The position numbers and the translations under genes were made by a program. This document shows, in pieces, positions 2,421 through 23,147 of a stretch of DNA of 64,000 bases; the first letter of the stretch is position 1, and each line of letters begins with the position of its first letter. This DNA is from Trypanosoma brucei. Its lineage: Eukaryota. The notes beneath the pieces were generated by a model. The model searched no databases and had not been told where the DNA came from. It worked only from the letters and a program-made list of their open reading frames with translations. The stretch covers positions 128,001 to 192,000 of the forward strand of contig CP000071.1 of assembly GCA_000002445.1 (NCBI GenBank). The letters run 5' to 3'.

Positions 2421-2446
2421 CCCTTGCAGACACTGGAATGTTACTC

Positions 2447-3661: not shown

Positions 3662-4845
3662 CTTTTCCCTTCGGTGGGAGGGTCCGCATCCAGCGATCTC
3701 TTCATCGAGTTTCGGGAGTGTATGTGTCCAATGCGGATGGCGGAGCTCAATTTCTGTTCCAGGGTGTTGACGTTCTTCTCTCTACCAATTTTCCTGCAGA
3801 GCTCGTCAACCTTGAGACGGAAATTCCTCCAGTTAGCTTTTAGCCATGCGTACATGGGCTTTCGAAGCCGCGGGCAACTCAGTGCATCTGTGTCGTCTCC
3901 AACGATAACGTCGAAAAATATGTGATGGCGATCGCTATCGGGAGAATACAGCGATGTCCACGTGTACACTGTGCAATTCCTTGACAGTGTCACATCAGGG
4001 CTGGACTCCCCGTGGTGGCGCGCGTACCTGGTGCACTCACCAGTGTTGCAGACCAGAAACTGGTTGTCAATGCACCACTGTGTGAGGGTTTCACCCTTGG
4101 TATTTGGTGGGCTCGCGCGATCCCATGCCAACGCGTGTGCGTTAGCGTCTGCACCGATGAGCTGGGCACCGTCAGTCGTTAGAAGCGTATCTAGGTCAGT
4201 TGCCGTGAAGGTGTGTTTTGGTGGGATGTATGCCGACGTGACAGTCAGCGCCGTTCCACGTGCAAGGTGAATTATTGCATGCACTTGTTCAATGCGACCA
4301 ACAACGGCTATACCGGTCTCGACTGGTAGGTCCTCCCTCACTAGTATTGATACACCACCTCCTTTGCAGTTACGAGCTATTCCGTGATGTTGGTAGCCAG
4401 CAACGCTAAAGCAAGCCGCCTCTCCAGGCGTCATCCTTGTCTCGCTCAACAGACAAAAGGCGATCCGCTCATCAACAAGGGTTTTGTGGAGTGCTAATCT
4501 CTTTCCTTGAGATAGCCCGGTGCAGTTCCACTGCATCCCTCGCAACGACGGGCCGGGATTCTCTTCCACATCACCGGACAGCAGCATCTTAGTGCGGATG
4601 ATACTGCTGATAGCACGCTGGCACGTGCCCAGGGACCGACAAATGAAAAACGGTGTCCCGGCAAGACGCCGCTGATCCCTGTTCTGTATGATGCCGTAGC
4701 CGGAGCACAGCAGTGTTCCCCATGAAAGGAACGCTGCTGGCTCTTGGCTTCGCCCGATGATACGGGGTACTGGACCCTGGCACCACGTTGAGGTGGCCGG
4801 CATCGCCAGGGGAAACACAAGCAACCAGATCACACCAAAGAACAA
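3655..4845 (-). CDS. ingi ORF segment: N-terminal 2A-like peptide plus apurinic/apyrimidinic endonuclease (EEP) domain. It is frameshifted relative to the RT segment.
   Basis: The translation contains LLSGDVEENPGP followed by an endonuclease-like domain (LSETRMTPGE..., SPDSDRHHIFFD). The ORF overlaps the next ORF at 3655-3661 in another frame. Confidence 0.65.
   Translation of the reverse strand: MFFGVIWLLVFPLAMPATSTWCQGPVPRIIGRSQEPAAFLSWGTLLCSGYGIIQNRDQRRLAGTPFFICRSLGTCQRAISSIIRTKMLLSGDVEENPGPSLRGMQWNCTGLSQGKRLALHKTLVDERIAFCLLSETRMTPGEAACFSVAGYQHHGIARNCKGGGVSILVREDLPVETGIAVVGRIEQVHAIIHLARGTALTVTSAYIPPKHTFTATDLDTLLTTDGAQLIGADANAHALAWDRASPPNTKGETLTQWCIDNQFLVCNTGECTRYARHHGESSPDVTLSRNCTVYTWTSLYSPDSDRHHIFFDVIVGDDTDALSCPRLRKPMYAWLKANWRNFRLKVDELCRKIGREKNVNTLEQKLSSAIRIGHIHSRNSMKRSLDADPPTEGKSW
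4549..4572 (-). other. 2A-type self-processing peptide motif DVEENPGP near the N-terminus of the ingi ORF
   Basis: The reverse complement of 4549-4572 is gatgtggaagagaatcccggcccg, which translates to D-V-E-E-N-P-G-P. A 2A sequence at the start of trypanosomatid L1Tc/ingi ORFs is established knowledge. Confidence 0.75.
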
Positions 4846-4896: not shown

Positions 4897-6199
4897 AGCT
4901 CACAGCAGACCCTGGTGGACAAAATAAAAGAAAAATGCGACTTCGCTACATTTAAGCAAGACGCCGGCGCATCTTTCAGAGATATCAACCGGGAGGAAGA
5001 CTCAGCGGACTGGAAAGACGCCAAAAGCTCGTGGAACGTAGCGAATCCCCTCACGGTACACGCTTTGCTGCTACATAGCTTCAGGAGCATCGTCAACAAC
5101 AGGGCCAACGAAGCTCTGAAAAAGTTCAAAGAGACGCAAGCGACCGGACTCGACACAAACCCCAACATAATAGAGCAGATTAACGAAGCTCGAACAAAAG
5201 CGGCGTGCGCGAGCGACGGTATGTACGATCCCGCAGCAAAGACATGCAAAGCATCACAGGGCAATACAATCACAAAAACGGCAGAATGCACACCAGACAA
5301 AGCCGGAACGAGCATCGGCCGCGACCTGATCTGCCTGTGAGCTTCGACTAACGGAGCGGAATGTACCGGCACACACTTCACGCAGGATCAGATCAGCGTC
5401 GGCAACATCGTAGCAACTGCGTGGGAAAAAACGGTTGCGAAGTGCCCAAAAGCAAACACAGATCTCTCTTTAGACGTGGCAATAGACATCGTGCTAGCAG
5501 CTGTCGCAGCGCAAATCGGTGTAAACTAAAACAGCGCAGCAACAGCGCATACGCTCACGGGTGGAACTTATTCAACGAGTTGCGCCAATGCCGGCAGCAA
5601 CTGCATAGACTATTCGTAACACTACACCGGCAGCACAAAAGGTTTCTACAGCATCCCATGGGCCGCTCAACTGACAGAGGCACGCAACCTTTACAAAATG
5701 TACCAGGAATTTGTTGAAAACAACAAGCGGCTGAAAGCAGAGGTAAAGAAACTAAAAGCAACGATATCAATCAGAACTACTCCGACAACCTCAATAATTC
5801 TCCGGCAATACAAACACGCCAACAGGAGAATCCAGCGGAACTAGGGGTGACGACAAGCCGCAGGTAGAATGTGGAAAGATAACAACGCCAGATAATTGCA
5901 AACCAGATATGGGATGTAAATATAACGAAACTCCTAACAAATGCGAAGAAGATCCTAAAAGCCATGTTGTTCAAGCGAACCAAGAAACTGGAAAGACAGA
6001 TGGGGGTGTAAAATACTTAGAATATGAAATGAAGAATAGATGTGAGGCTGTCAACAGGGATGACCAAAAGAATTGTAAATGGAGAAGAGGGAAAAGAGGA
6101 CGAAGATGACAAGGATAGAGAAGTGCCGAAATGGAAGTTTTCTCATCAATAAGAAAATAGCTCTGATGGCTGCTGCTTTTGTGAGTTTGTTGTTATGAC
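4897..6199 (+). pseudogene. VSG: Variant surface glycoprotein (VSG) pseudogene. The N-terminal-domain-like region and the C-terminal domain with GPI-signal tail are spread over at least three frames, with an in-frame TGA at 5338-5340. It is 5'-truncated where it abuts the ingi 5' end.
   Basis: The translation includes the VSG-like ...AECTPDKAGTSIGRDLICL*ASTNGAECTG... (frame 1, 4897-5528). Cys-rich CTD pieces (CGKITTPDNCKPDMGCKYNETPNKCEED, CEAVNRDDQKNCKW) occupy another frame. The terminal ...KCRNGSFLINKKIALMAAAFVSLLL* (ending 6199) is the classic VSG GPI-anchor signal tail. The VSG 3'UTR 16-mer lies 75 bp downstream. Confidence 0.8.
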
Positions 6200-6272
6200 A
6201 ATTTTTAAAAGGATTTTTGCCCGATTTTATAAAATCTGTTATTTGTGATAATTTGACATATTTCTTAATATA

Positions 6273-6288
6273 TGATATATTCTAACAC
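6273..6288 (+). promoter_or_regulatory. Conserved VSG 3'UTR 16-mer (TGATATATTCTAACAC; one mismatch to TGATATATTTTAACAC)
   Basis: Exact string read at 6273-6288, downstream of the VSG stop. The 16-mer is a known VSG mRNA stability element. Confidence 0.75.
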
Positions 6289-6456
6289 TCTTTGATGAAA
6301 ACCTAAAAATCAGTAGAACTCTTTAAAAATACGTATGAAACTTTTTTACGGGTGTAACTTAGTACGGTGATAAGGTAGGTTAATGATTGCTTTTTCAATG
6401 TATATCCATTTTGGTTTTTTATAGCTATTAGTGATAGCCATATTGTAATGGTAAGT

Positions 6457-6535
6457 ATAATAATAATAATGATAATAATGATAGGAGGGTGTATTGAGTG
6501 TGTATATACTAATTCTAATATTATAATAAATTGCT
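6457..6535 (+). repeat. Single 70-bp-repeat-like element (VSG-associated imperfect repeat): (TAA/TGA)n tract followed by a GGAGGGTGTATTGAGTGTGTATATAC...ATATTATAATAA core
   Basis: taataataataatgataataatgataggagggtgtattgagtgtgtatatactaattctaatattataataaa closely resembles my recollection of the T. brucei 70-bp repeat consensus (…TAATAATGATAGGAGAGTGTTGTGAGTGTGTATATACGAATATTATAATAAGAG…). The consensus is recalled, not aligned. Confidence 0.5.
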
Positions 6536-7692
6536 GTATAATATTGTGCATTTGCACGGCTGAGAATGGTATGTCTTGGTAAAGATTTCCTCGTTCACTC
6601 ACCCAGCATACCACCAAATCGTGCTCTTATGTGGTGCACAAACTTGTAATTTCTCTCTCAGAAAGAGACTTGTGAATATCATAAAGTAGTCACATTGTTG
6701 AAACACGGGTAAACACACGTATAAAAAATGCATATATTCATATATTTAACACATTTTGCGGTCTTATATCGTTTTTAATATCATAGATTGCCTATACTAT
6801 CCAGAGAGACAGCAATTCTCTTTCTAAACGGTTATTTACACGATGCATTTGGAACCTTCTTCAGTGTCAGCACACATATTATTTCCTGCGTCTTTGTAGA
6901 ACTCAAGGATGGTCAACTTATTTTATTCATATTTTAATTCACATATCGGAGGAACACACATTCAACTAAGCGCATGTCCATTAATTCTACCTACAGATAA
7001 TATTTTCAAAAGAAATCAGATGGAGGTATATTTCTTTTTACAGAATCATTTAATAACATATGCCGAAAAGCATGTATACAGTTAAAACAATTCTTGCTCA
7101 ATAAGCAACACGATATGGATATTTTGTCCTGAATCGGGAAATAAACCCATAAAATTACATTTTTACTTTTTGTCAGTTTATATGTGCACCAGCACCTCGC
7201 CATTCCCTCTTTTAAAATTAGATTTTCTAAAATTATTTCATAAATTATGAGAGAAAAGAAGAAAAACAATCTAGATTACCACACACACATACTCTGTCTC
7301 TCTCGTTCACACTATTATCAATTGTTTGATTTATTTAGAAGTGAATTATTGTTATTATTGATATTGTTTTTATTACTATAAAACATATATTGGTTCCTTC
7401 TTACACGCAAAGAGTGCGTCCTAAGATTTTTTCTCTGTAAATAGCACCTTCTCAAAAACTAACAACTTTATATCCCTTAAATTTCTCACCATCTTTATCG
7501 TTATCTCACACATTCACACTACTCTAATTTTCCCCTTTTCAGCTTAATTTCAAATATTGGTATTTCCTGTTTCTTTATTTTCTTAACATTTAGACATCAC
7601 CTTTTTTTGCCTGCATTAATGTCAATAAGGGATAGTATAACAAAATTATTATGGGGAAAAGATAAAGTGAGGAAAACAATCATCACGCGTGA

Positions 7693-8691
7693 TCACTCAG
7701 CGACATCAGCGAGAACCCGCCCACCGCGGCTGCGCACGAACTCCATGCGACGGGGCACAAGCACTGCGATCTCTTTACCAAAACGGAAAAAGACAGCAAC
7801 AGCGAGAAGTCCTGTGCCCATACCAATTAAGCTACCAGCAACTATATCAGCGAAGTGATGGCGGTTGTCACGTGTTCGTGAGATGGCGCAAGCACATGCG
7901 AGGTAAATTGGAGAAAGGCCAACGAGTGTTCGCCACACGGATGCTCCACTGAACGCGTGTAAAACCGAGAGGAAGTATAGGGCCATCGGTGTGCAGACGG
8001 AGAAAGCGCAACTACTGTGCCCTGAAGGAAATGAAAGCCTGCCATCCCTTGCTTTTGCAATGTCACAGAGATCTTTTGGATCTGTTCCTTCCGTAACGTT
8101 AGCCTTTTTCAATCTATCAAGAAAATCAGGACGGAGTCGGCCAGCATAAACCTTCAATATTTCCACCAAACAAACGGCCAAAATAATAGAAAATCCGTGC
8201 GCCAGAACCCAGTAATTGGTGGCTTCAAGACATGTCATAAGTCTCTTTGGATCATTCTCTTTGTTCCCTTCTGGCGATTCGTCGGGGTATCTTCCAGCCT
8301 TAGCAGCATTTGCGCCTTCAGACCTCTTCCCTTCTGGCTCCAACATCTCTACCCGCGTAGTGGCTCCGTCTATGAGTTGATCAGTTTCTTTCACATCCAA
8401 GTACCACTCACCCTTCCGAGCCAAACGCGCACGCAAGGCTTCGAACAGCAGATAAAGTCCAATAGGTATAAATTCCATGGAAAACAGTGTTCCTGAGGGG
8501 AATGTGGACTTCCCCTTCTTATGACTTATGTCCGTGTCATTCCATGAGAATGTTCGGCAAGGTGGGCGGACAGTCCTCATTCCATACACAACAGCCAGTG
8601 CAAATGTCACAAGTAGAATGTAGTCCAGCGCATGAAATACCTTTATGTAGTACACAAATTTTGCGAACCCTGTCTTACCATCATCTGCCAT
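7693..8691 (-). CDS. PAP2-family lipid phosphate phosphatase (phosphatidic-acid-phosphatase type 2), multi-pass membrane protein
   Basis: All three PAP2 signature motifs are present: KVYAGRLRPDF (KxxxxxxRP), SFPSGHSS (PSGH), SRTRDNRHHFADIVAG (SRxxxxxHxxxD). ATG verified at 8689-8691. Hydrophobic segments are present. Confidence 0.8.
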   Translation of the reverse strand: MADDGKTGFAKFVYYIKVFHALDYILLVTFALAVVYGMRTVRPPCRTFSWNDTDISHKKGKSTFPSGTLFSMEFIPIGLYLLFEALRARLARKGEWYLDVKETDQLIDGATTRVEMLEPEGKRSEGANAAKAGRYPDESPEGNKENDPKRLMTCLEATNYWVLAHGFSIILAVCLVEILKVYAGRLRPDFLDRLKKANVTEGTDPKDLCDIAKARDGRLSFPSGHSSCAFSVCTPMALYFLSVLHAFSGASVWRTLVGLSPIYLACACAISRTRDNRHHFADIVAGSLIGMGTGLLAVAVFFRFGKEIAVLVPRRMEFVRSRGGRVLADVAE

Positions 8692-10171
8692 CTTTTAACG
8701 CCTTGTTGTGCTCAATTAAGTAACGACGCTGCAAAACAGTTATCAAACAGCGGATAAAATAAAGGAGAACGGTACAAAGAATGCATGAACATATTCAAAT
8801 TCAAAAAAAAAGATTGCAACCCCTGCATGCAATACGCTTTAACTCAATATTCCGAAGCTTTTTATTGCTCTTTGTGGGATTGTCACTGGAAAGGTGTACT
8901 GTACGTATGCAACTTGATGATAATTCTATAAATCACATCATAGAATAAAAAGTCAAGCAGCATATAAATAAAACAGTGTTAAATCTAATTACAAGGCGTT
9001 TTTGGATACCTCCCGTGCATTTTCCATACTTCATAAGATCTGTAATGCATGTGTGTGAAGATATTATATATATATGCACTCCTATGCTCCCGATATGTCC
9101 AGGGACTGTGTAAATGAGGAAGAGGTATTCGCTGTTCCAGACTTCCTCCACAAGCACAGAAACCATATAATTCGCGATCACTTGTCCCTCCTATACAACA
9201 CTATCTCCTTACATCATCATTGTCATGGAGAAGAATGCTGCGCACACGGACATGCGCAACAGTTCTTTTCCACAACTAAAATACTAAAATCCCATAAAAA
9301 CAGCGAGTATACACTCATCGATACTCACACCAGCAGAGTCACACTACTAATTCCAACTGTAAATCTGTATAGTGGAGGAAGGGGCTGTCGTACAATGAAC
9401 CAAGTATCCTTAGCCCTCTTCAGCGGTCTGAACATAAACTCGGTTTTTGTGCAGCTTATCCGCATAGTGGGAAGAAAATGGTTTCCGCTTCACGCGTCCT
9501 CTGAAACACCATCTTTTCAATTATGCCAAGAACGTTACGCCTTTGTTTCAGGGTGTAGTGGGATACTTGCTTTACTATATCACTGATTAGTTTTATATTG
9601 AAAAAGAGTCTCTTGACTACTACCTTCTTTCCTGCAGCCGCCTCTGATCCAGACATTGTGCAGAGGTAATGTTGTCTAACGGAGAAGCATGAACCGTCAA
9701 TTTGAGAGTTGCTAATATCCTTTAATGGAAAAACCTACTATATTTGACCAACCATTTCAATTAAACTGTTGTGCTTAAATGTGGAAACCTGGCGCAGCGG
9801 TACGTACTTCACAGCGAGAAAAGAGTCCACATATTTGTGTTTAAGAGGAGAGAACATAGCATGTGTAGTTCAGATGCTAAACGCAAAGATACTTTAGCTC
9901 GATTTTGTTTAGCAGCAATAACATCAAAAATAAAAACAACGGATGAGCAAAAAGAGAAACGCATCTCCACGTGCAGCCTGTTAAACAGATATTTACAGCC
10001 ATCCAGAGGAAAACATTTCACCACAAATTTCAATTTTCAGCACCGCTAATAATCTGTCTAAAACAACCTCTAAAAATCAAAGATCGTAAACACAAATGAT
10101 TACCTTAATATTGTGTTGAATGACAATAAAAAATTGCTTTTCTAGACAACGATACTTCCACGCACCATCTT

Positions 10172-10845
10172 TTTAAACACTTGTAGTCCCCATAGTAGCT
10201 TCTAGCTTAATGATAGCGTACAACATAAAGAAATTCAATACATCCTTCTCCAAACATATATATATATATGTATGTGTGTGTTAATTTCCTTTAAACTTCA
10301 CTCCCCTCACTTCCTTATATACCAAACTTCCATACCTTATCTAACCCCATATGTTAAGTGTTACATTACTCCTAATTTTCAACGTTCCAGCAGTATTTCT
10401 TTCACGCTGTTCATAATTCTATAAGGCACCGCCCATCATATAGGGTAAACTATTTTTAACCTTTTAATTCTATTTTCTTACTTTGTACTATGTGTACATA
10501 GGTTATTATATGATGTATATGAAAATTGGTAAAAAGAAGCAACAGTTATATTCAATTCCGAGAACACCTCATGGTGTAAATATAAGTTTTTAAAACTAAT
10601 GATACCATTCGTTACGACACAAATATCCTCTCGAATATTACAACAATCTTATTTATACCTTTAAATTCTTAATAAATAAATAATTATATTATCGACAGTA
10701 TTTCGTGATTATTCTTTGACGAATTCTTTTGGTCCACCCATGACGTTACCGTCATACAACAATTTATTAAAAATAACATAAAATGCTTAGTAAAAAAAAG
10801 AAAATATTACCCTTATTTTCGTGTAATTTCCCATTGTTTCGCTTT
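10172..10845. repeat. Duplicated segment X, copy 1 (the 3' flank and last ~18 codons of gene A). The second copy is at 13218-13855.
   Basis: Near-identical strings in both copies: cttgta[g/a]tccccatagtagcttctagcttaatgatagcgtacaacataaagaaattcaatacatcc... through ...aaaatattacccttatttt. Confidence 0.8.
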
Positions 10846-11618
10846 AATGGACTTCGAACAACTTCATCATCATAATTTTCTTCATCATCTTCACCACTAT
10901 TACTTTCGTTTCCTTCCCCTATTGATTTTCTTCTTTGCATTCTTCCACGATATTTTCCTTTTCCCCCCTTACTACTATCCTCTTCATCCTCATCCTCATC
11001 CTCGCCCTCATCTTCTTCCTCGTCCTCCTCTTCATCCTCATCGTCTTCATCGTCTTCATCGTCTTCATCGTCGTCTTCCGTCCATAATCCTCCGTATGGT
11101 CCAACAATTTCTACACCCCGCACTCTTTGAATCTTCTCAGGGGTGAGGTAAGTGACAATACATTTTCCATGCACTGTACCCCAATGATCGTAATCTCCAA
11201 CATTTTTGGCCCATTTTTTTTCAAATTTCAACATATCCTTGGTGCATTTCGCAGCTTTGCTTCTCGTTAGTGGAAAGGTCCCATTTAGTTGACACACGGG
11301 ATTTATCCCCAAAAAATTCCAGCCTTTCATTGTTCTTCCCACAGATTCGAAGCTCGTATGATTCCATCCCTTTTTCGAATAGGCCAAAGCAATGCCACCC
11401 TCCTCACCCCCTCCGCAGTGCATCTTCCCCCACCTTATCCTCTGACCACCTCTTTCGCAATAAAACCGCATATGTCCACCTTTTTCAAATGCGGCGCACA
11501 CCTCGTCCAGTGATAATGAATTCCTATAGAGCGCATACATTTTGAGAAGTTCCCAAAAAGAGGCTTCAGCAGAGGACCCGAGAAAGCCGAGAATGAGCGC
11601 CAGTACTATGGTTTTCAT
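10767..11618 (-). CDS. Cassette gene A, copy 1: a 283-aa predicted secreted/surface acidic protein. Signal peptide MKTIVLALILGFLGSSA, Cys-containing N-domain, long D/E run, basic stretch, hydrophobic C-terminal tail (GPI-signal-like). Family unknown.
   Basis: ATG verified. The 17-aa N-terminus and ~18-aa C-terminus are identical to the ORF at 13813-14628. The internal ~240 aa are only distantly similar, though the Cys/Trp spacing is conserved. Confidence 0.6.
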   Translation of the reverse strand: MKTIVLALILGFLGSSAEASFWELLKMYALYRNSLSLDEVCAAFEKGGHMRFYCERGGQRIRWGKMHCGGGEEGGIALAYSKKGWNHTSFESVGRTMKGWNFLGINPVCQLNGTFPLTRSKAAKCTKDMLKFEKKWAKNVGDYDHWGTVHGKCIVTYLTPEKIQRVRGVEIVGPYGGLWTEDDDEDDEDDEDDEDEEEDEEEDEGEDEDEDEEDSSKGGKGKYRGRMQRRKSIGEGNESNSGEDDEENYDDEVVRSPLKRNNGKLHENKGNIFFFLLSILCYF

Positions 11619-12296
11619 ATTGATCTCCTACTGACAAACACAGAAAAAATGCCCATATATTTTACCCAATACTCACTAACGTATTCGATATACCTTCTCC
11701 CATGGTTGTAAGTAATTTTAGAAGAAAAGAAAAATAACAATTATCAAAAGGTTATATAACGCTCTTTTATTAGTTACTCCCTCTCGGCACTCATAATCCT
11801 CATCATCGGCCTCATCGCTGTTTTCACCTTTACGCCTGCATATTTTGGATTTACTCTTTTCACCTTTAACCTTTGAAACTTTAGTCTCCACAATTACCTC
11901 TTCCTTCTTTCGTTTTTCTTTTTGATATCCAAACTCTTTTACACGATTCTTTTCTTCGCATTGATTTAAATCTTCATCCTCTTCAGTTGCATCATACCTG
12001 GCAAAAGGCACATTTTCACTAGTGTTTGGCATTTGGGATTCCATAATGACGGACTTTATCTGAGTGCTTTCTTTGCTGCAGTTCCCTCCTATTCGTTTGC
12101 ATGTGCTTTCCATAGCACTTCCTGCAAGAGCCGCAAAAATGGTGGAAACAATTTGAGTGCCTACGCTTACACCTTGAGGTGGCGAGTAAACATGGTTCAA
12201 GGCTATGATGCAGTGATTCTGATTTCTTAAACGCCACACCCGCATTGGACCAGTAGCTTCTGTACGCGGGGTTGCCGCGAAATGCGCAGGCGCACA
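11571..12296. repeat. Duplicated segment Y, copy 1 (gene A signal-peptide codons, the A-B intergenic region and the 3' two-thirds of gene B). The second copy is at 14581-15297.
   Basis: agaggacccgagaaagccgagaatgagcgccagtactatggttttcatattgatctcctactgacaaacacag... is identical in both copies. Confidence 0.8.
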
Positions 12297-12662
12297 ATCG
12301 TTTATTGGTTCAACGATTATGGTTCGCCGCCTGCTCACCCGGCAGCATGGGTTGTAACCGCGACCACGAAAGGTGTCATTTACAAACTTGGCCCCGGGGT
12401 CTGAGAGGTGACGCTTCCAGTCTTCTAACGTCCATTGCGTAGGCAAAAGGTACATTCTACCGTCCTCTCCTCTAGAACACAATGTTATGTTCCACCCCTG
12501 CTCTGATTTTCGGATTTTGCTGTCAAAGTTACATGCTACAATAACACTTTCACCATCGATAAACCAAAAGGCGTGGCAATTCCTCACTCTGTTATATTCC
12601 TCACCATTACAGAGTGAGGAAAATAAAAGTATTATTAAAATAGCGCCTATCTGTTTACACAT
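11718..12662 (-). CDS. Cassette gene B, copy 1: a 314-aa predicted secreted/surface protein. Signal peptide MCKQIGAILIILLFSSLCNG, Cys-rich N-domain, E/K-rich acidic-basic region, hydrophobic C-terminal tail LLIIVIFLFF. Family unknown.
   Basis: The ORF-track start at 12671 is TTG; the first ATG is at 12660-12662. The C-terminal ~175 aa are duplicated, nearly identical, at 14728-15255. Confidence 0.55.
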   Translation of the reverse strand: MCKQIGAILIILLFSSLCNGEEYNRVRNCHAFWFIDGESVIVACNFDSKIRKSEQGWNITLCSRGEDGRMYLLPTQWTLEDWKRHLSDPGAKFVNDTFRGRGYNPCCRVSRRRTIIVEPINDCAPAHFAATPRTEATGPMRVWRLRNQNHCIIALNHVYSPPQGVSVGTQIVSTIFAALAGSAMESTCKRIGGNCSKESTQIKSVIMESQMPNTSENVPFARYDATEEDEDLNQCEEKNRVKEFGYQKEKRKKEEVIVETKVSKVKGEKSKSKICRRKGENSDEADDEDYECREGVTNKRALYNLLIIVIFLFF

Positions 12663-13217
12663 CAAGAACAATTCTGAGGGCGTAAATTTTTAGAGGCAGT
12701 GAAGCAACAGATTGTGCACCACAACGTGGTTTAGATCTTTGGTTTCTAAAGGTAGTAGTGATAGTAAAGCAAACCAACATTGTGGAGTAAAGAAAGAATG
12801 AGCTCAGAGCAAAATAGAAAATGATGTGAGGTGTAATTTATATTTTCGTGAGATAGAGGATTTTTAATTTTTTTTTGTTGGAAAAAATTCCAAAGAGAAA
12901 ACTTTTTCAAATTGTAGTTTCCACTTCCAACCCTGATTCTTCTATTTTCAAAATTAAATATATGCAGAGCGGCACAAATCACCACCTACTATTCATTACA
13001 ATCATCTACAAATGTTGTGGTAAGTTATACCAAATGTAATACCGTTTTTATAAAACATAAACACATGATAATTACGCTCCGTTGCTTTCAATTAAAATAT
13101 CGAGTAATTCTATAACAGAATAGTCAACATTAAAAAAGAACTCTATCAAATTACGAAAAATCACACAAAAGGAACAATATAACAGGAAGTACCCATCCTG
13201 AAAACGCGGCACTTTTC

Positions 13218-13855
13218 TAAACACTTGTAATCCCCATAGTAGCTTCTAGCTTAATGATAGCGTACAACATAAAGAAATTCAATACATCCTTCTCCAAACA
13301 TATATATATATATGTATGTGTGTGTTAATTTCCTTTAAACTTCACTCCCCTCACTTCCTTATATACTAAACTTCCATACCTTATCTAACCCACCATATGT
13401 TAAGTGTTACATCACTACGAATTTTCACTGTCCCAACAGTATTTCTTTCACGCTGTTCATAATTCTATAAGGCACCGCCCATCATATAGGGTAAACTATT
13501 TTTAACCTTTTAATTCTATTTTCTTACTTTGTACTATGTGTACATAGGTTATTATATGATGTATATGAAAATTGGTAAAAAGAAGCAACAGTTATATTCA
13601 ATTCCGAGAACACCTCATGTTGTAAATATAAGTTTTTAAAACTAATGATACCATTCGTTACGACACAAATATCCTCTCGAATATTACAACAATCTTATTT
13701 ATACCTTTAAATTCTTAATAAATAAATAATTATATTATCGACAGTATTTCGTGATTATTCTTTGACGAATTCTTTTGGTCCACCCATGACGTTACCGTCA
13801 TACAACAATTTATTAAAAATAACATAAAATGCTTAGTAAAAAAAAGAAAATATTA
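13218..13855. repeat. Duplicated segment X, copy 2
   Basis: See copy 1; roughly 95% identical by eye, with small indels. Confidence 0.8.
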
Positions 13856-14628
13856 CCCTTATTTTTTTGAGGACTTGCGGTACCTTGTTTTACCAGGTTT
13901 TGAAAATCTTCATTATCATTCGCATATTCATCATCGGCATCAGCACCATGTTTGTCATCTATTCCTTCTTCGTGTGCATTCTCACTACTCAATATCGTTT
14001 TTCGTTTTTTTGCGGTTCTTTTTCTCTTTTTGTGTCGCCTTTTTTTTTCAACTTCAAGTTCTCTAGTCATATTCTCTTCTTCATTCCTGCTCTCTTCTGG
14101 CTCGTCGTCCTCGTTAACTTCCACTGCTTCTCCTTCAGTTGAAAGAATGTCAAGAGGACGAGTGGTGATAATGCACTTCCCTTTCGCAGGATCCCAGCTC
14201 TTGTACCTATTACCATTTTTTACCCTTCGCTCCATCTTTTTTAGCGACTCGTTTGTGCATTGGGTGACCGGAACCTTAGGTAATTCAACTTCGTCATCAA
14301 TGGTGCACTCTGGATTCACTCCCAAATAAATCCAGTCATCCATATCTTGTTCCAGCAATATGTGCTTCTCGTAAGACTTCCACTCGTTTGAATAGGAAGC
14401 AAAAACATTCCCCTTTTCGTCGACACCGCAACTCATTACCTTCCAAATCGGCAACTCATTCCCCCTATGGCAAAACATCTGCATACCCCTGTCATCTGCA
14501 AACGCGGAGCACAACCGTTTGGGTGTCCCGAGGTCATCGTAAAACAAGTGCTTAATTTTATCCCATTCCTCTTTATCCGCAGAGGACCCGAGAAAGCCGA
14601 GAATGAGCGCCAGTACTATGGTTTTCAT
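13813..14628 (-). CDS. Cassette gene A, copy 2: a 271-aa paralogue of gene A with the same signal peptide and C-terminal tail but a strongly diverged mature region
   Basis: ATG verified. MKTIVLALILGFLGSSA... and ...KNKGNIFFFLLSILCYF are shared with copy 1. The core aligns only by pattern (C-AF...F-C-RG...W...CG...E-G...YS...W...LG-NP-C). Confidence 0.6.
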   Translation of the reverse strand: MKTIVLALILGFLGSSADKEEWDKIKHLFYDDLGTPKRLCSAFADDRGMQMFCHRGNELPIWKVMSCGVDEKGNVFASYSNEWKSYEKHILLEQDMDDWIYLGVNPECTIDDEVELPKVPVTQCTNESLKKMERRVKNGNRYKSWDPAKGKCIITTRPLDILSTEGEAVEVNEDDEPEESRNEEENMTRELEVEKKRRHKKRKRTAKKRKTILSSENAHEEGIDDKHGADADDEYANDNEDFQNLVKQGTASPQKNKGNIFFFLLSILCYF

Positions 14629-15297
14629 ATTGATCTCCTACTGACAAACACAGAAAAAATGCCCATATATTTTACCCAATACTCACTAACGTATTCGATA
14701 TACCTTCTCCCATGGTTGTAAGTAATTTTAGAAGAAAAGAAAAATAACAATTATCAAAAGGTTATATAACGCTCTTTTATTAGTTACTCCCTCTCGGCAC
14801 TCATAATACTCATCATCGGCCTCATCGCTGTTTTCACCTTTACGCCTGCATATTTTGGATTTACTCTTTTCACCTTTAACCTTTGAAACTTTAGTCTCCA
14901 CAATTACCTCTTCCTTCTTTCGTTTTTCTTTTTGATATCCAAACTCTTTTACACGATTCTTTTCTTCGCATTGATTTAAATCTTCATCCTCTTCAGTTGC
15001 ATCATACCTGGCAAAAGGCACATTTTCACTAGTGTTTGGCATTTGGGATTCCATAATGACGGACTTTATCTGAGTGCTTTCTTTGCTGCAGTTCCCTCCT
15101 ATTCGTTTGCATGTGCTTTCCATAGCACTTCCTGCAAGAGCCGCAAAAATGGTGGAAACAATTTGAGTGCCTACGCTTACACCTTGAGGTGGCGAGTAAA
15201 CATGGTTCAAGGCTATGATGCAGTGATTCTGATTTCTTAAACGCCACACCCGCATTGGACCAGTAGCTTCTGTACGCGGGGTTGCCGCGAAATGCGT
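14581..15297. repeat. Duplicated segment Y, copy 2
   Basis: See copy 1. Confidence 0.8.
14728..15297 (-). pseudogene. Cassette gene B, copy 2: a 5'-truncated copy retaining only the C-terminal ~175 codons
   Basis: It is nearly identical to 11718-12296. Sequence similarity ends at ~15297. The upstream B reading frame hits TGA immediately, and no signal-peptide region is present. Confidence 0.7.
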
Positions 15298-18200
15298 AAT
15301 TGGGCTCCGACGTCAGCCCGGGACTGAACATTCTTGCTGCCACCAGGCAAATGGCATTTGCCTTTTATGTGGAAGCGCCCATACTGTCAGTGCTTTCGCT
15401 TCTCTACCATACGTTCTTTCCTTTGAAATTCCAGTGTTTCGTTTGTGCTTCAACTGTACTCTAAATGAAAATATAGTACCTATAGGGTGTTAGTCATATA
15501 ATTATGTTAAAGTACTATATTATATTTTTTACATGACAACGGTGAAGTGTTCAACATGTTTATGTCCAACGAGAGTCGCCGATGACGACGAGTACGCCAG
15601 ATGGCTGCGAGGCCCATATTGGGTCGAAAACCAAGATCTTGAGGGTGCTGTGGGTCGCATTAGCAGGTTGTTATTATTATCGCTTGCTCTCGTCTGGCAG
15701 TCGGTTACGGAAGATAATTTAGCCCTAACGGTGTCATATAATAATCTTACCAATTCAATGAGCTACGCTACTCCACTCTCTACACTCCTGCGCCTGTGTT
15801 TGGTTTTTGTGTCAACTTTAGATGGAAATGCTTTAGTGAAGCGGTCTATCATCCGCTTCTCAGTTTTAACTGTGGAGAGTTTTCCTTATCAAGCACCACA
15901 CGATCACGACTCCGGTATGTTTACTAACTTTCATCCCCTTTTGTTAATATTTATTTTTTGCAACCACCATGTGGCAAAGTGGATATGAGCTGCTCCTGTC
16001 TCCATCATTTCGCCATTGCGCCCTGTAATCACCCTTTCTAAATGTTGAATCACTTCTCGAGGACTCCTCGAAAAAAAAAAACCCTGACCATCACCATTCC
16101 CTCTCACTAACTCCCCTTCAAACTCTTATACATAGAGCGTGTAGCTGCACAAGACGGTGTTACACGTATTCGTCCGCCACGCGCAAGGAGAGCCTGCATC
16201 TCAACACTTTCAACCGTCAGCATTATCAGCTGTTTGACCACGGGCATCCCATGAAAATGCTTTCAAACTTCATGCAGGACGAACCAATCTCGGTGGAGCT
16301 GTAGTCGCTATGCACTTATGATTATACAAATGCACCCCTCGTTGTATTTCCAGTTGGCTTCCAAAACACACGAAAAAAAGGAGAGTGAATATGAAATATT
16401 CGAATCCATCACCGACGCATGAGCATTTGTAGTTGGAGCAGGCGCCAATGTCAACGATTCCTCCACAAGTATATAAAGATATATTATTTCACTCACCGGA
16501 AGTATTCATAGAAAGCAAGAAAAAGCATTAAGAGACCACACCTCAGGAGTCTTCACGCTGGAAAGGCTACTCCGCACATTCTTTACGGGCGCAATTGGCA
16601 CGTTCATGACCTTTTACCGCCCACCACCGAGAGGGGCATGTGGCTCCCAGGCGGTATTGTAGAAAAAAAATGCGGCGACAGCATCGAGTTAAAAACAAAC
16701 ATAACACACGTCCATACAAAACAGGGACACAGAAAGTAATTGTCCCTGCACCCTTTCTCAAATGAGAGAGATCTTCATTGGCTGTCAGAAAGAAAAAAAA
16801 AACATCACTGCTTAGTAAGAGGCATCATTTTGAAGAAAGCTCATAATTCAACAAATTCGTTCTTACAATAAAAACGACTGAAATAACAGTTTCTACAAGA
16901 TGTAGGCAGCCGTACACTAGCGTGATGATATGAAGCATGGTATTCGCTCAGGCTTCCGATCTATGAGGAAGTAGAAAAATAGCGGCAAACGCTTGATGTA
17001 GATAATTATTCACAAGGTCCGAAAATAGTATAGGATTCTCTCAGGTAATATCGAATGAACTCATACTCCAATTTGAGCCACAGGAAACACTTGTGCCAAA
17101 CACGTTTCTGCAAACCATCAACCTTTATTCAAGAGGCGGTGGGCACATTTATACCAACGGAAAGCGCGCTGCCTGTAGGCGAAAATATGAAATTCCCGCA
17201 ACAAGCCATGAGATGCACCAACAACGTCTTACACAGGAGGCGAATGTGTTATGCAATACGCTATTGAAGAAGGGTTTTCACGGCCGCTAGCGGAGGGAAT
17301 GCCACCGAACGGCTTCAGGATGACAATAATTCTTGGGATCAACCGTGATCATCTACAGGGAGCGTGGGGAGTTAAATTGGGGCTGGCGACTGAGCCAAGT
17401 GGTGACCATCGTTTTATCGGGTCCGGAGCAAACCATATTGGAGTACTTACCGATAAGTCTTCGTGCACACGCTAAAGAAACAGGTGCAAACCTGCCGGTG
17501 CGGCGAGAATTGGGCGAACGAAACCGTGCGATTGTCAGCAACAATAACCCCGTCATAAAGGAGGCAATTCCGAAGAGGATGAATGGGCTGGTGTCAAATT
17601 TTGGAAGCGAAAATTATGGAGTACACGCGGGGAAATAAAGCGGTATGAAAACGGAAAGGGCGCTGATCAAACTGGAGATGGAAAAAAAAACCTGGGTAAC
17701 GCGCAGGTCTCAAATCCTTTGGGCCAACCACTCGGTCCAATAAAGGAGCAGGAGGTACATGCAAAGAACGAGGGTTATAGCTATCAAAAATGAGGGAACA
17801 GGAATGATATCGGCCTCAAGGAACTGAACGGGCAAAGAATGATCATGCGCTCTGCCTGACAGTGGTGAAAGCGCATATTTAGCTTTTTTTTTTTGCAGAG
17901 GGGGATGCAGTTGTCAGACGCGCTGAGTTCGAGCTAGCAAGAGAAGAAAAAATAAGGCAAAGCGCCGTGAGCAACAGCGCGCATCCCAAAGAATGAGAGT
18001 TGTTCCGACGTATTTAATGAGTTGTAGCTTAACCCAGGAAGTGAGAGAGCGGACCGCAAAGCAGACGACCGGCGTACAGGACACATGAAAAAGATTAACG
18101 AGAGGCAGAAGTAGCGGGGGGAGGGAATTTAGAAGGAACACCTGACACGGGGCCGACTGCCAAGTTCAGACGGGTCCATCACGCTGGACGCGCTTTCGTG

Positions 18201-20157
18201 AGGAGTGTCATCGAACCCAAAAGCGGAAGAGGTCATGACAGAGCTGGAAAGATATTCCGCAGCCATGGCAGAGCGCATTGTGATGGAAAACGGAGCTAAT
18301 AAAACGAACTAAAATAACAAACATGAACATAGCAAAAAAAAAAAGAGGAACGATCCGGTTATCCGGTCAGTATCCAGTGCGATACACGCGTGAGTCAGGC
18401 AGCGGTTGTGCACACGATAAAAGCGCACAAACGGAGGAGCAAGTGAGTGCCATCAGCAACAAAGCTTGGGGAATGAAGTAAAGCTACGAGAGGAATCCCG
18501 GTGTGACGACTGTGTGAAAATCTTTGATTGAAGTTAGCCGTTGTGGTGATTAAAAAAAAACACACACACACAAAACATTCCCATAAAGATAACCGAAGGA
18601 GAAAAAAGTCAGAAAAGCACCAAGGAGGAATTACCGAGAAAGGGCTCCGACGCCCGCACTGGTTGAAAAAGTACGAAAAATACGTATAACAAAAAAACAA
18701 AAGGCAACGAAAAAAAAAAAAACCGTCCAAGTATACAGAGCGTCGAAGAAAAGAGTAAAATGGTTTGAAAAAAAAAAAGAAAACAGAAGGTAGAGAATAC
18801 AAACGCCCGAGAGTCAATGGTATAAAAGGGAACCAGAGAGTAAAACATGGGTAACGGAGCACAACTACAAACCGAAAGTTGGTGGAGAAAGAAGGGAAAA
18901 TCAGAAGGTTATGTTAGACACAGAACCATGTCCAACATGTAGCAAAATATGCCACCACAAGTGGATCCCGAACTGCGTATAACAAAGGATACCTGGCACA
19001 CAACGGCACTCCTTTTTTTACCTTAGAAAAAAAAGGAAAGAAAAAGTGGGGATGGACGGAAAAGGAGGTACAGGGGAGACAAGATATTTTTTAAAAAAAG
19101 CAAAAAAAAAAAGAGATCACGGACATAGAAGATGTACCCGCGCCTCAAGACGGTAGCTGCTGGAGTTCCACTTCCAGGGAGCATCACGAAAACACAAATG
19201 TTTCCCAAGGCAAAAAAAACGAAGAGTGACACAAATTAGCAGGATTTACTTCTCTAACCTCAAAGGCTCATCTCAATGTTCCCCTTTCTTCGCTCAACAA
19301 AACACGCCACTAAGCAATACCTGGCAATTCACCTTTAGGTAAGATAGAGGCGACAGCCCCATAAGGTAGTCAAAAAAAAGGGTTGGGGATGTTGTCTCGG
19401 AAGTGAGTTCCGCACTTGTTTGAGAGACTTACTATTAAGGATGCGAAGGCAAGAGTACAAAGCAGACAAGTTCAAGGAAAAAGAGAAGCAATGTAAATGT
19501 GTGGTTGGCATCTTTTCTCAGGGAGTTGTCCAAAGTGCAATACTCCACGACCCCGATACAAAAAAAAAAAAGCAAAGTTGAAACCTACAAAATCGAAGGA
19601 AGAAGACCACACCCACCTTAAAGAATCCGCAAAACTCTACCGCAAAACAAGGCAAATGAAGTGTACAAAAGCAAAGGTTGATGCAACGGCAAGGTGCAAA
19701 CTCTCAAAACACCAGACGCTTATTCAGCATTTGGCGTATCTAAATGGAAAGCGGTAGGGAACCCCGATCGGCTTCCCATCGTGATCAGCAGTCCATTTAG
19801 GAGTCGGTGCCGCGGGAATGGAGTACCATAAGCTTACTGTCACATTCCCCTCCCTTTCCCCCCCAAAAAAAAATAATAATCCGGTACCATAACTTAATTC
19901 CCATCTGTTGTCCCCGCCTTTTGTGCGCATGCGCAGTTCAACACCAATACACGCAGCAACCACCTCTTCGACTTAGGGGTCCAACATCAGGGAACCTCAC
20001 TTACCATTTGCACTAAAAAAGGAGAAAAAATGAGCGAAATAAACATAGCCACTCCTCCAGGGCCGTGAGCGGGTAGTGACAACCAATGGGTAGCACTGCT
20101 TTACGCACTTAAATCGAGTCAAATCATGCCGACCCAAAATATGGAACTGCCAACGTT

Positions 20158-20185
20158 AAAATAATAATAATAATAATAATAATAG
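20158..20185. repeat. (AAT)9 microsatellite
   Basis: Read directly; a second (AAT)7 tract is at ~61790-61811. Confidence 0.85.
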
Positions 20186-20506
20186 GACAAGCCCATAGAT
20201 AAACAGTCAATGAGTAACTGTAGATGGAAGAAAACAAAAGTAAAAAAAACAGCACATCTGTGAATGGGCTAAACCCAATGTATGCTGGTGTAAAGTGGCT
20301 CTTACAATGTTATGGGGTCAGGGGTGGGGGTCCTAGTAGTATAAATTCATGTTCATCTTCGTCCGCTGTTACGAAACAAATGCGGACATCCATCACACAA
20401 TTATACAGCCTTGCTCTTTTTTTTTACCTAATGTTTTGGGAGACTTTCGCATTCTGGTGCCTACAACTTTCATAATATCGTATAGTAAAATGGCGTTTTA
20501 CACTAT

Positions 20507-23119: not shown

Positions 23120-23147
23120 GGGGTTAGGGTTAGGGTTAGGGTTAGGC
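23120..23147 (+). repeat. Interstitial telomere-type repeat (TTAGGG)4.5
   Basis: ggggttagggttagggttagggttagg read directly; the G-rich strand is the plus strand. Confidence 0.9.

What the first reader, a model, noticed from the sequence alone, without database searches (positions are those of the whole stretch)
10767..12662. Genes A and B define uncharacterised predicted surface/secreted acidic proteins
Neither protein contains a domain I can recognise. Their architecture (signal peptide, Cys-containing N-domain, long D/E runs next to K/R clusters, hydrophobic tail) and their position next to VSG, ingi and LRRP remnants both look like a lineage-specific parasite surface family. The shared C-terminal tail of the A proteins (…KGNIFFFLLSILCYF) is encoded by an A/T-rich segment that also resembles 3'-UTR sequence, so whether the tail is truly translated is itself uncertain.
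Basis: inference. Interest (0 to 1): 0.55.

Follow-up and report, generated by a model that had tools for sequence, protein, structure and literature searches.

The report
Orphan trypanosome secretory protein gene pairs
The two genes are real and already catalogued (Trypanosoma brucei Tb927.8.490 and Tb927.8.500); they encode small proteins found only in the T. brucei group, with an export signal, a six-cysteine domain, a highly charged stretch and a probable lipid-anchor signal, and their function is still unknown.

Summary
The window is T. brucei TREU927 chromosome 8. Gene A1 (10767-11618, minus strand) is Tb927.8.490 and gene B1 (11718-12662, minus strand) is Tb927.8.500. A second unit holds A2 (Tb927.8.510) and a 5'-truncated B2 (Tb927.8.520).

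No Pfam, PDB or HMMER relative exists outside the T. brucei group, and AlphaFold2 could not fold either N-domain (pLDDT about 30).

All copies share one plan:
- a signal peptide;
- an N-domain of about 140 residues with six aligned cysteines and a G-x-N-P-x-C motif;
- acidic, basic, then acidic clusters;
- a hydrophobic end of 12-13 residues, too short for a membrane span and typical of a GPI-addition signal.

A and B are probably distant paralogues (p about 0.01).

Published data place the cluster at the end of a Pol II transcription unit. mRNA is barely present in bloodstream forms and 4-8 fold higher in procyclic forms. It rises together with procyclin and PAG mRNAs and under iron starvation.

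New here: the A1 and A2 mature cores are saturated in divergence (dS about 1.8, 28% amino-acid identity), whereas the signal peptide, tail and UTRs are 98-100% identical through gene conversion.

The best reading is a stage-regulated secretory family, probably GPI-anchored. Surface location is unproven. Interest is low to moderate.

The parts
10767..11618 (-). Gene A1 (Tb927.8.490), 283 aa plus stop codon
   Evidence: ORF. 95% identical to the BAC-allele protein Q57WN2. Queiroz 2009 lists Tb927.8.490 as 283 aa.
11568..11618 (-). A1 signal peptide (aa 1-17, MKTIVLALILGFLGSSA), identical in A2
   Evidence: Hydropathy and the -3/-1 rule (by inspection). It lies inside the 99.7% identity block.
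11139..11567 (-). A1 six-cysteine N-domain (aa 18-160; Cys 41, 54, 68, 109, 125, 153)
   Evidence: All six Cys are conserved in A2, and they align with Cys in B in 5 of 6 (MAFFT) or 6 of 6 (hhalign) positions.
10977..11078 (-). A1 poly-Asp/Glu run (aa 181-214, 33 of 34 D/E), encoded by imperfect 9- or 12-nt repeats
   Evidence: Its length differs in the BAC allele.
10926..10970 (-). A1 basic cluster (aa 217-231, KGGKGKYRGRMQRRK)
10770..10817 (-). A1 C-terminal tail (aa 268-283, NKGNIFFFLLSILCYF), a putative GPI-addition signal, identical in A2
   Evidence: The hydrophobic part is only 12 aa and nothing follows it.
11619..11717 (-). 99-nt B-to-A spacer with a short polypyrimidine tract and AG dinucleotides 8-15 nt before the A start codon
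   Evidence: Sequence read. The copy-2 spacer (14629-14727) lies inside the 99.7% identity block, with 2 mismatches in 721 nt overall.
11718..12662 (-). Gene B1 (Tb927.8.500), 314 aa plus stop codon: signal peptide aa 1-20, Cys-rich domain, charged region aa 224-298, hydrophobic tail aa 301-314
   Evidence: 100% identical to Tb927.8.500. Features.
10169..10819 (-). Conserved 3' block, copy 1 (A tail plus about 600 nt of 3'UTR/intergenic sequence), 98% identical to 13212-13865
11566..12286 (-). Conserved 5' block, copy 1 (B from about aa 127 to its stop, the spacer, and the A signal peptide), 99.7% identical to 14576-15296
13813..14628 (-). Gene A2 (Tb927.8.510), 271 aa; its mature core is 28-31% identical to that of A1
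14728..15255 (-). B2 (Tb927.8.520): a 175-aa ORF that is a 5'-truncated copy of B, lacking the signal peptide and most of the Cys domain
   Evidence: homology to B1 starts at 15296 and the upstream frame has stop codons. Listed as producing no detectable transcript in procyclic cells.
10671..10683 (-). AU-rich-element-like UUAUUUAUUUAUU in the conserved A 3'UTR (second copy at 13717-13729)
   Evidence: 3 matches in the window against 0 expected. Its function is inferred only.
7693..8691 (-). PAP2 phosphatase gene (Tb927.8.480), the last gene of the transcription unit and co-regulated with A1 and A2
   Evidence: Pfam PF01569, E=4e-28. Literature.

Best explanation
A1/B1 (Tb927.8.490/.500) and A2/B2 (Tb927.8.510/.520) form a small orphan gene family restricted to the T. 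brucei group (Trypanozoon). A and B are distant paralogues.

Each protein enters the ER through a cleaved signal peptide. It folds a disulphide-bonded, N-glycosylatable domain of about 140 residues. It then carries a disordered acidic-basic-acidic stalk. It ends in a hydrophobic stretch of 12-13 residues, which is most likely exchanged for a GPI anchor. The mature protein would be an A or B ectodomain of about 27-31 kDa, tethered to or shed from the membrane.

[quoted passage not shown] Their mRNAs are nearly silent in bloodstream forms and rise 4-8 fold within 12-24 h of differentiation to procyclic (insect midgut) forms. The product is therefore most likely a minor insect-stage or differentiation-stage component of the surface or secretory pathway.

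The locus evolves by unequal crossing-over, which removed one unit in T. b. gambiense and T. evansi. It also evolves by gene conversion, which keeps the targeting signals and UTRs of the two A genes identical while their mature cores stay anciently diverged.

Shown here or in the cited papers: ORFs, architecture, orphan status, duplication and conversion pattern, transcript regulation. Inferred: signal-peptide cleavage, GPI anchoring, surface location, biological role.
For: Real coding genes:
- The ORFs are far longer than the null.
- Across the A1/A2 N-domain dN is 0.72 against a saturated dS of about 1.8, so omega is at most about 0.4, and all six Cys are retained.

Secretory architecture:
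- N-terminal hydrophobic segments have Kyte-Doolittle values of 2.9-3.0.
- The predicted mature parts hold even numbers of Cys (6 in A, 12 in B).
- There are 2-4 N-x-S/T sequons per protein.
- The extreme C-terminal hydrophobic stretches of 12-13 aa are preceded about 6-10 residues upstream by small-residue triplets (A1 N-N-G, A2 G-T-A, B G-V-T) (by inspection).

A and B related:
- The alignment is collinear, with F, W, E-x-G, G-x-N-P-x-C and C-I-[IV] invariant.
- BLASTP gives E=0.004 and hhalign E=0.0013.
- The Smith-Waterman score is 42 against 28 +/- 4.6 for shuffles; 26 of 2000 shuffles reach it.
- The B tail is of the same kind as the A tail but has a different sequence.

Orphan status:
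- Only T. brucei-group hits were found.
- Pfam and PDB searches were negative.

Expression:
- Queiroz 2009 cluster 33 gives log2(sample/procyclic) of about -2 to -3 in bloodstream forms, reaching 0 by 24 h.
- Tb927.8.510 has rpkm 1.1 against a median of 30.6 in bloodstream forms and lies 6 kb from a convergent stop; Tb927.8.480 is the last ORF of the unit.
- The genes rise together with procyclins and PAGs after CTR9 RNAi, ZC3H20 RNAi and I-BET151 treatment, and on iron starvation or TfR RNAi.
- Only .520 is on the no-transcript list for procyclic cells.

Locus dynamics:
- The conserved blocks are 98% and 99.7% identical, against 49% nucleotide identity in the core.
- The TREU927 paralogues are closer to each other than copy 2 is to its gambiense orthologue. 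In the 3' block 16 sites in all, 12 of them in its first ~405 nt, have both 927 copies identical and gambiense different.
- T. b. gambiense carries only B2-A2-PAP2, and .490/.500 are absent from T. evansi.
Against: - No peptide or localisation evidence for the surface exists. The proteins are absent from the text-held supplements of the bloodstream-form surface proteome and the spatial proteome. That is expected if expression is low or confined to the insect stage.
- TrypTag, as quoted in PMC8259959, reports 'secretory pathway compartments' rather than surface. Terminal tags would, however, mask either targeting signal.
- GPI anchoring rests on inspection only; no predictor was available.
- AlphaFold2 gave pLDDT of about 30 for both N-domains, so a fold is not established.
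- A1 and B1 are dispensable in T. b. gambiense and T. evansi.
- The A2 N-domain shows 10 non-synonymous against 3 synonymous changes between 927 and gambiense (omega about 0.8). This could reflect relaxed constraint.
- The homology between A and B is only weakly significant.
Confidence: 0.6

Rival explanations
1. The proteins are soluble or membrane-associated residents of the ER, Golgi or endosomal system, not surface GPI proteins. Their poly-acidic stretches would bind cations (Ca2+, or iron as suggested by Tiengwe et al.), and they would form part of a stress or iron-starvation response together with the neighbouring PAP2 phosphatase.
For: Tb927.8.480.490 and .510 mRNAs rise about 3-7 fold after TfR RNAi, and PMC8259959 reports 'predicted ion binding motifs' and location 'within the secretory pathway compartments' from TrypTag. 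A1 has a run of 34 residues that is almost pure D/E. They are absent from the bloodstream-form surface proteome supplements.
Against: There is no ER-retention motif at the C-terminus; the proteins end in a hydrophobic stretch with nothing after it. The acidic run is poorly conserved: 34 residues in A1 but short mixed clusters in A2 and B. In the DFO RNA-seq table the changes are small (log2 0.35-0.74, several with FDR above 0.05). The same genes also rise with procyclins and PAGs in unrelated perturbations, which points to general de-repression of a transcription-unit-end or differentiation regulon, not to iron sensing. TrypTag terminal tags disrupt signal peptides or GPI signals and commonly trap such proteins in the ER (general knowledge).
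Confidence: 0.2
2. The ORFs are decaying or functionless lineage-specific sequences. [quoted passage not shown]
For: A1 and B1 are missing in T. b. gambiense and T. evansi. B2 is plainly a 5'-truncated remnant. mRNA levels in bloodstream forms are very low: rpkm 1.1, and RT-PCR failed to detect the mRNA in PMC3332058. Omega is about 0.8 in the A2 N-domain between subspecies. No peptides were found. The region is unusually divergent between subspecies.
Against: Three intact ORFs of 271-314 codons persist in DNA of 36% GC, where the null maximum is 208 codons. A1 and A2 are saturated at synonymous sites yet keep frame, length, all six Cys and the same domain order, with dN below dS. The A2 C-terminal half has 1 non-synonymous against 3 synonymous changes. 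Transcripts are developmentally regulated rather than constitutive noise.
Confidence: 0.15
3. The A protein is VSG-related, as implied by the UniRef name 'Variant surface glycoprotein' attached to the allele Q57WN2.
For: Only the database name supports this, together with the proximity of a VSG pseudogene remnant at 5909-6109.
Against: There is no match to the VSG N- or C-terminal domain models, even at E<=1. The protein is about half the length of a VSG. NCBI nr calls the same sequence hypothetical. The profile search recovered no VSGs.
Confidence: 0.02

Closest known systems
Procyclins (EP/GPEET, T. brucei procyclic-form coat proteins)
   Same: Restricted to the T. brucei lineage. Share a signal peptide, a poly-anionic low-complexity stretch and a C-terminal GPI-type hydrophobic signal. 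mRNA is low in bloodstream forms and induced on differentiation. They go up together in the CTR9-RNAi, ZC3H20-RNAi, I-BET151 and iron-starvation data sets. Paralogues share conserved signals and UTRs around a variable middle.
   Different: A and B have no EP or GPEET repeats and no Pfam match. They carry a six-Cys globular domain of about 140 residues and a poly-basic cluster. They lie at the end of a Pol II unit, not in a Pol I procyclin unit. Their mRNA abundance is very low.
Procyclin-associated genes (PAGs) and other T. brucei-specific stage-regulated orphan genes
   Same: Function unknown, species-group specific, predicted secretory or membrane proteins. They are co-regulated with A and B in the same experiments.
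   Different: No sequence similarity: searches with A and B returned only A and B. The chromosomal context differs.
Small T. brucei signal-peptide/GPI-signal cysteine-rich families such as ESAG9 (from own knowledge of the literature, not tested directly)
   Same: About 300 aa, with a signal peptide, a Cys-containing ectodomain, some members with GPI signals, stage-regulated, next to VSG-associated repeats, and with variable copy number among strains.
   Different: No detectable homology: the profile search of 1.84 billion proteins, whose source collection includes NCBI and UniRef T. brucei entries, found none. A and B peak in procyclic rather than stumpy forms.
Cassette-like evolution with conserved ends, as in the VSG 3' ends (own knowledge, analogy only)
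   Same: Near-identical targeting signals and UTRs flank a mature-protein core that is extremely diverged, and the boundaries fall at the signal-peptide cleavage site and the start of the C-terminal signal.
   Different: There are only two A cores and no evidence of switching or of a donor archive. The conversion here homogenises the flanks rather than replacing the core, and expression is not monoallelic as far as known.

Membership tests
GPI-anchored secretory proteins (class, not a homology family) | Cleavable N-terminal signal peptide | tested here: met
   The first 17 (A) or 20 (B) residues have a K/basic n-region, a hydrophobic core of 10-12 residues (KD 2.9-3.0) and small residues at -3/-1. 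This was judged by inspection; no trained predictor was available.
GPI-anchored secretory proteins (class, not a homology family) | C-terminal hydrophobic stretch of about 8-20 residues at the very end, preceded by a short polar spacer and a small-residue omega site | tested here: met
   A ends in IFFFLLSILCYF (12 aa) after NGKLHENKGN (A1) or TASPQKNKGN (A2), with candidate omega sites N-N-G and G-T-A. B ends in LYNLLIIVIFLFF (13 aa) after G-V-T-N-K-R-A. The stretch is too short for a bilayer span. This rests on inspection only.
GPI-anchored secretory proteins (class, not a homology family) | Biochemical proof of the anchor (PI-PLC release, lipid or ethanolamine labelling, loss of the C-terminal peptide) | not testable with these tools
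   Requires experiment.
Procyclins (Pfam Trypan_PARP) | EP dipeptide or GPEET pentapeptide repeats, or a match to the family model | tested here: not met
   No Pfam hit at E<=1. The acidic run is D/E-only, without proline.
Procyclins (Pfam Trypan_PARP) | Location in a Pol I-transcribed procyclin unit | tested here: not met
   The genes lie on chromosome 8 at the 3' end of a Pol II unit (PMC3332058 Table 3). Every ORF of 150 aa or more between 7.7 kb and 64 kb whose identity was checked lies on the minus strand, and most plus-strand ORFs of that size overlap longer minus-strand ORFs.
Variant surface glycoprotein | VSG N-terminal domain and/or C-terminal domain (PF00913, PF10659) | tested here: not met
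   No match for A1, A2, B1 or B2 at E<=1. The same library does detect the VSG remnant at 5909-6109.
A/B family itself (Tb927.8.490-.520) | A and B share a common origin: collinear N-domain, cysteine register and G-x-N-P-x-C motif | tested here: inconclusive
   BLASTP E=0.004; hhalign E=0.0013 with probability 18%; shuffle test z about 3, 26 of 2000; 5 of 6 (MAFFT) or 6 of 6 (hhalign) Cys aligned. Suggestive but not decisive; the structure comparison failed.
Acidic luminal cation-buffering proteins (calreticulin/calsequestrin type) | Homology to those families, or an ER-retention signal | tested here: not met
   No Pfam or PDB match, and no KDEL-like C-terminus.

The most novel reading that the evidence does not exclude
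The two A genes may carry two ancient, selectively maintained versions of one ectodomain (dS saturated, 28% identity). These would be mounted on gene-converted, interchangeable signal, anchor and UTR modules. Together with B they would form a so far unrecognised insect-stage or differentiation-stage GPI-anchored surface family of the T. brucei group. Its presence or absence polymorphism (lost in T. b. gambiense and T. evansi) could affect behaviour in the tsetse fly or the response to nutrient or iron stress.
Probability: 0.2. Interest if true: 0.5.

Novelty: new member of a known kind. Interest (0 to 1): 0.3.

Why it matters
Practical value is modest. The genes are already annotated, and their regulation is already published.

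If the proteins do reach the procyclic or differentiating cell surface, they would add a minor family to the short list of T. brucei-specific insect-stage surface molecules. They would also give a locus that varies between subspecies: it is present in T. b. brucei TREU927, pieces of it appear in a T. equiperdum scaffold, and it is reduced in T. b. gambiense and T. evansi.

The sharp contrast between gene-converted targeting signals and UTRs and a saturated mature core is a tidy small example of concerted evolution stopping at the boundaries of the mature protein. That may interest people who study surface-gene evolution in trypanosomes.

The cluster is also a convenient reporter of de-repression at the ends of transcription units.

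Tried and rejected
- **Pfam** scans of A1, B1, A2 and B2 gave only compositional sub-threshold hits.
- **PDB** sequence search with an N-domain profile gave nothing below E=0.07.
- **HMMER profile search** of the A1+A2+B N-domain against 1.84 billion representatives returned the family itself plus three bacterial proteins of 736-1230 aa made of Ig-like tandem repeats. I reject these as spurious. Their scores sum over 5-6 repeats of a 'YSxDxKxWKxY...G' motif, they contain none of the conserved cysteines, and they cover only profile positions 58-117.
- **AlphaFold2** on the A1 N-domain (3-sequence alignment) and the B N-domain (6-sequence alignment) gave mean pLDDT 30.7 and 30.5. I therefore ran no fold search, because matches to such models are meaningless.
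- **Synteny through PAP2.** The nearest non-Trypanozoon PAP2 genes are chromosome-10-type loci (T. congolense TCIL3000_10_11530; T. vivax next to NMT). They have no A/B-like neighbours, so this route says nothing about the origin of A and B.
- **The T. equiperdum contig L002** at first seemed to show an insertion inside B. Its junctions are runs of N (scaffold gaps), so I did not use it for structure. It shows only that pieces of B1, the region upstream of B2, and A1 exist there.
- **A1 versus T. equiperdum dN/dS** is unreliable, because the D/E repeat shifts the ungapped comparison.
- **The bacterial promoter/terminator scan** is irrelevant to a trypanosome and showed no enrichment.
- **Supplement searches** found no mention of the genes in the cell-surface phylome, the spatial proteome (prefix matches only), the bloodstream-form surface proteome or Naguleswaran 2018. 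The supplements of Siegel 2010 are not held, so splice and poly(A) sites could not be checked.
Full report
**Identity of the locus**

The ORF scan finds four related minus-strand ORFs: A1 10767-11618 (283 aa), B1 11718-12662 (314 aa from its ATG), A2 13813-14628 (271 aa) and B2 14728-15255 (175 aa). B1, A2 and B2 are exact matches to Tb927.8.500, Tb927.8.510 and Tb927.8.520 of Trypanosoma brucei brucei TREU927.

A1 corresponds by position and length to Tb927.8.490, which Queiroz 2009 lists as 283 aa. It is 95% identical to the allele on BAC 27P2, Q57WN2.

Kolev 2010 Table S2 places Tb927.8.520 at chr8 142728-143255. The window is therefore Tb927_08_v4 128001-192000. The next gene downstream is the PAP2 phosphatase Tb927.8.480 at 7693-8691.

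**Check of the observation**

All the described features are present:
- N-terminal hydrophobic segments with small residues at -3/-1.
- Six cysteines in the mature A N-domain, and twelve in mature B.
- A run of 34 residues in A1 that is almost pure Asp/Glu, followed by a Lys/Arg cluster and a second acidic patch.
- The same acidic-basic-acidic order, in shorter form, in A2 and B.
- A hydrophobic stretch of 12-13 residues at the very C-terminus.

The ORFs are much longer than expected in this AT-rich DNA. The null longest open stretch was 121 +/- 21 codons with a maximum of 208, against 283-323 observed.

The stated neighbourhood is also real:
- an ingi-type non-LTR element at 300-4845;
- a VSG C-terminal-domain remnant at 5909-6109;
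- an LRR remnant at 20507-20869.

One correction: only A is acidic overall (mature pI 4.6 and 5.0). Mature B is near neutral, at pI 7.7.

**Homology searches**

- Pfam gives nothing meaningful.
- Word-indexed searches of 5.8 billion proteins return only T. brucei-group sequences. Cluster listings add T. b. gambiense and T. equiperdum copies and the BAC alleles.
- A full HMMER profile search of 1.84 billion representatives, using the aligned N-domains, recovers the family plus three bacterial tandem-repeat proteins. I reject those as repeat-summed chance matches without the cysteines.
- The PDB sequence search is negative.
- AlphaFold2 gave unusable models for both the A and B N-domains, with pLDDT about 30. 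No fold comparison was attempted for that reason.

The family is a genuine orphan of the T. brucei group.

**Relationship of A to B**

The N-domains align collinearly. Invariant positions are F, W, E-x-G, G-x-N-P-x-C and C-I-[IV], and five (MAFFT) or six (hhalign) cysteines fall in register.

The statistics are weak but consistent:
- BLASTP E=0.004;
- hhalign E=0.0013;
- Smith-Waterman z about 3, with 26 of 2000 shuffles reaching the score, for both A1 and A2 against B.

A and B also share the same domain order and are adjacent. I consider them probable distant paralogues, but this is not proven.

**The C-terminal tail**

The A1 and A2 tails are identical, but that says little, because they sit inside a 98%-identical block that continues into the UTR.

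Two other points carry more weight. B has a tail of the same kind but unrelated sequence (LYNLLIIVIFLFF against IFFFLLSILCYF). And in all copies the hydrophobic stretch is terminal, only 12-13 residues long, and preceded by a polar spacer and a small-residue triplet.

This is the usual form of a GPI-addition signal, and it is too short for a transmembrane helix (inference from general knowledge of GPI signals). If it is a GPI signal, the tail is translated and then removed. Peptides from it would never be seen in the mature protein.

**Locus structure and evolution**

Two blocks are duplicated:
- 10169-10819 matches 13212-13865 at 98%. This block holds the last 16 codons of A plus about 600 nt downstream.
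- 11566-12286 matches 14576-15296 at 99.7%. This block holds B from about residue 127 to its stop, the 99-nt spacer, and exactly the 17 signal-peptide codons of A.

Between these blocks, the part of A that encodes the mature protein shows no nucleotide similarity by BLAST. In a codon alignment it is 49% identical at the nucleotide level and 28% at the amino-acid level. dS is about 1.8 (saturated) and dN is 0.72.

In both conserved blocks the two TREU927 copies are closer to each other than copy 2 is to its T. b. gambiense orthologue. In the 3' block 16 sites in all, 12 of them in its first ~405 nt, have the two TREU927 copies agreeing and gambiense differing. This indicates concerted evolution of the flanks around an anciently diverged core.

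B2 begins abruptly at 15296, and the upstream frame has stop codons. It is therefore a 5'-truncated remnant without a signal peptide.

T. b. gambiense has only B2-A2-PAP2, with the join inside the A 3' block. This is as expected from unequal crossing-over. PMC4288722 reports that .490 and .500 are absent from T. evansi and had already called the pairs a segmental duplication.

Between TREU927 and gambiense the counts are as follows:

| Region | Non-synonymous | Synonymous |
|---|---|---|
| A2 N-domain | 10 | 3 |
| A2 C-terminal half | 1 | 3 |
| PAP2 | 6 | 21 |

The A2 N-domain differs from PAP2 with Fisher p=0.0017. The ectodomain is evolving fast at the protein level. Over the long term, however, dN is below dS, and the cysteines are fixed.

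**Expression, from the literature**

- *PMC3332058.* Tb927.8.480 is the last ORF of a Pol II unit and Tb927.8.510 lies 6 kb from the convergent stop. The rpkm is 1.1 against a median of 30.6 in bloodstream forms. Both genes rise after CTR9 RNAi, together with procyclins and PAGs.
- *PMC3121479.* .480 and .510 rise with PAGs after ZC3H20 RNAi in procyclic forms.
- *PMC10269879.* .520 and .480 rise after bromodomain inhibition. The authors class them as genes induced during the bloodstream-to-procyclic transition.
- *Queiroz 2009, supplementary table.* .490.510 and .520 have log2(sample/procyclic) of about -2 to -3 in bloodstream forms and up to 1 h, -1.3 to -1.8 at 12 h, and about 0 from 24 h.
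- *PMC8259959.* .480.490 and .510 rise about 3-7 fold after transferrin-receptor RNAi by qRT-PCR. The RNA-seq changes with deferoxamine are small and abundance is very low. The authors mention signal sequences and a TrypTag location in the secretory pathway.
- *Kolev 2010.* Only .520 is listed among ORFs without a detectable transcript in procyclic cells.

No peptide evidence was found in the supplements I could search.

**Interpretation**

The best-supported reading is a stage-regulated secretory family, probably GPI-anchored. It is expressed mainly once parasites differentiate toward the insect midgut form. It lies in a recombination-prone transcription-unit end, where expression is repressed in bloodstream forms.

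What the proteins do is unknown. By analogy with procyclins, the poly-anionic stalk may hold a small disulphide-bonded head away from the membrane. That is inference only.

The rivals are:
- a luminal cation-binding or iron-response role;
- functionless, decaying ORFs;
- a relationship to VSG, which is effectively excluded.

**Novelty and score**

The genes are annotated, their duplication is published, and their regulation is documented. The finding is therefore correct but largely re-discovers a known pair of hypothetical genes.

What this analysis adds:
- the probable paralogy of A and B;
- the argument for a GPI signal;
- the truncated nature of B2;
- the sharp contrast between converted flanks and a saturated core.

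A specialist would not find any of this very surprising. Interest: 0.3.

Noticed in passing
window 11619-11717 and 14629-14727: The spacer between the stop codon of B and the start codon of A is only 99 nt. It has a short polypyrimidine tract and AG dinucleotides 8-15 nt before the ATG. B's 3'UTR must therefore be tiny, or B's polyadenylation must fall inside its own coding end or beyond A. This is unusually compact for T. brucei.
   Followed up: partly
window 5002-22493 versus L001 (T. b. gambiense chr8): Identity between TREU927 and T. b. gambiense drops from 98.9% (22522-25315) to 96.6% (13218-22493) and 95.9% (5002-10819). PAP2 has dS 0.094 with omega 0.08. The end of this transcription unit carries much older haplotypes than the adjacent core.
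   Followed up: partly
window 10671-10683(-) and 13717-13729(-): A class-II AU-rich-element-like motif, UUAUUUAUUUAUU, sits in the conserved 3'UTR of both A genes (3 matches in the window, 0 expected). It could contribute to low mRNA levels in bloodstream forms.
   Followed up: no
window 7693-8691(-): The closest relatives of PAP2 gene Tb927.8.480 outside the T. brucei group are chromosome-10-type genes (T. congolense TCIL3000_10_11530 at 48%; T. vivax tandem PAP2 genes near NMT at 45%). A second T. brucei-group paralogue is 57% identical. Tb927.8.480 therefore looks like a dispersed duplicate that landed at this transcription-unit end.
   Followed up: partly
window 4915-6109(+) and 300-4845(-): A VSG pseudogene remnant on the plus strand (C-terminal domain, PF10659, E=1.7e-5) abuts a degenerate ingi element whose RT, endonuclease and RNase H ORFs are broken by stops. 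Together they mark the convergent end of the minus-strand transcription unit.
   Followed up: partly
window 15297-23600: About 8 kb between B2 and the next long gene (23635-30990, 2451 aa) holds only short ORFs. It includes an ESAG8/LRRP-like LRR fragment (20507-20869), a strongly A-rich plus strand at 16-20 kb (AT skew up to 0.36) and a trinucleotide run near 20170-20199. It is apparently degenerate filler.
   Followed up: no
A1 residues 181-214 (window 10977-11078) versus P0001: The TREU927 chromosome copy and the BAC 27P2 allele of A1 differ by about 5% at the protein level, including length and composition changes in the D/E repeat. The A2 BAC allele shares four substitutions with T. b. 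gambiense. TREU927 therefore appears heterozygous for diverged haplotypes at this locus.
   Followed up: partly
L002 (T. equiperdum CZPT02001948.1): This 2.8-kb scaffold joins B1 N-terminal sequence, the B2-upstream sequence and A1 across runs of N. It shows that A1 and B1 sequences exist in T. equiperdum, but its order cannot be trusted.
   Followed up: partly
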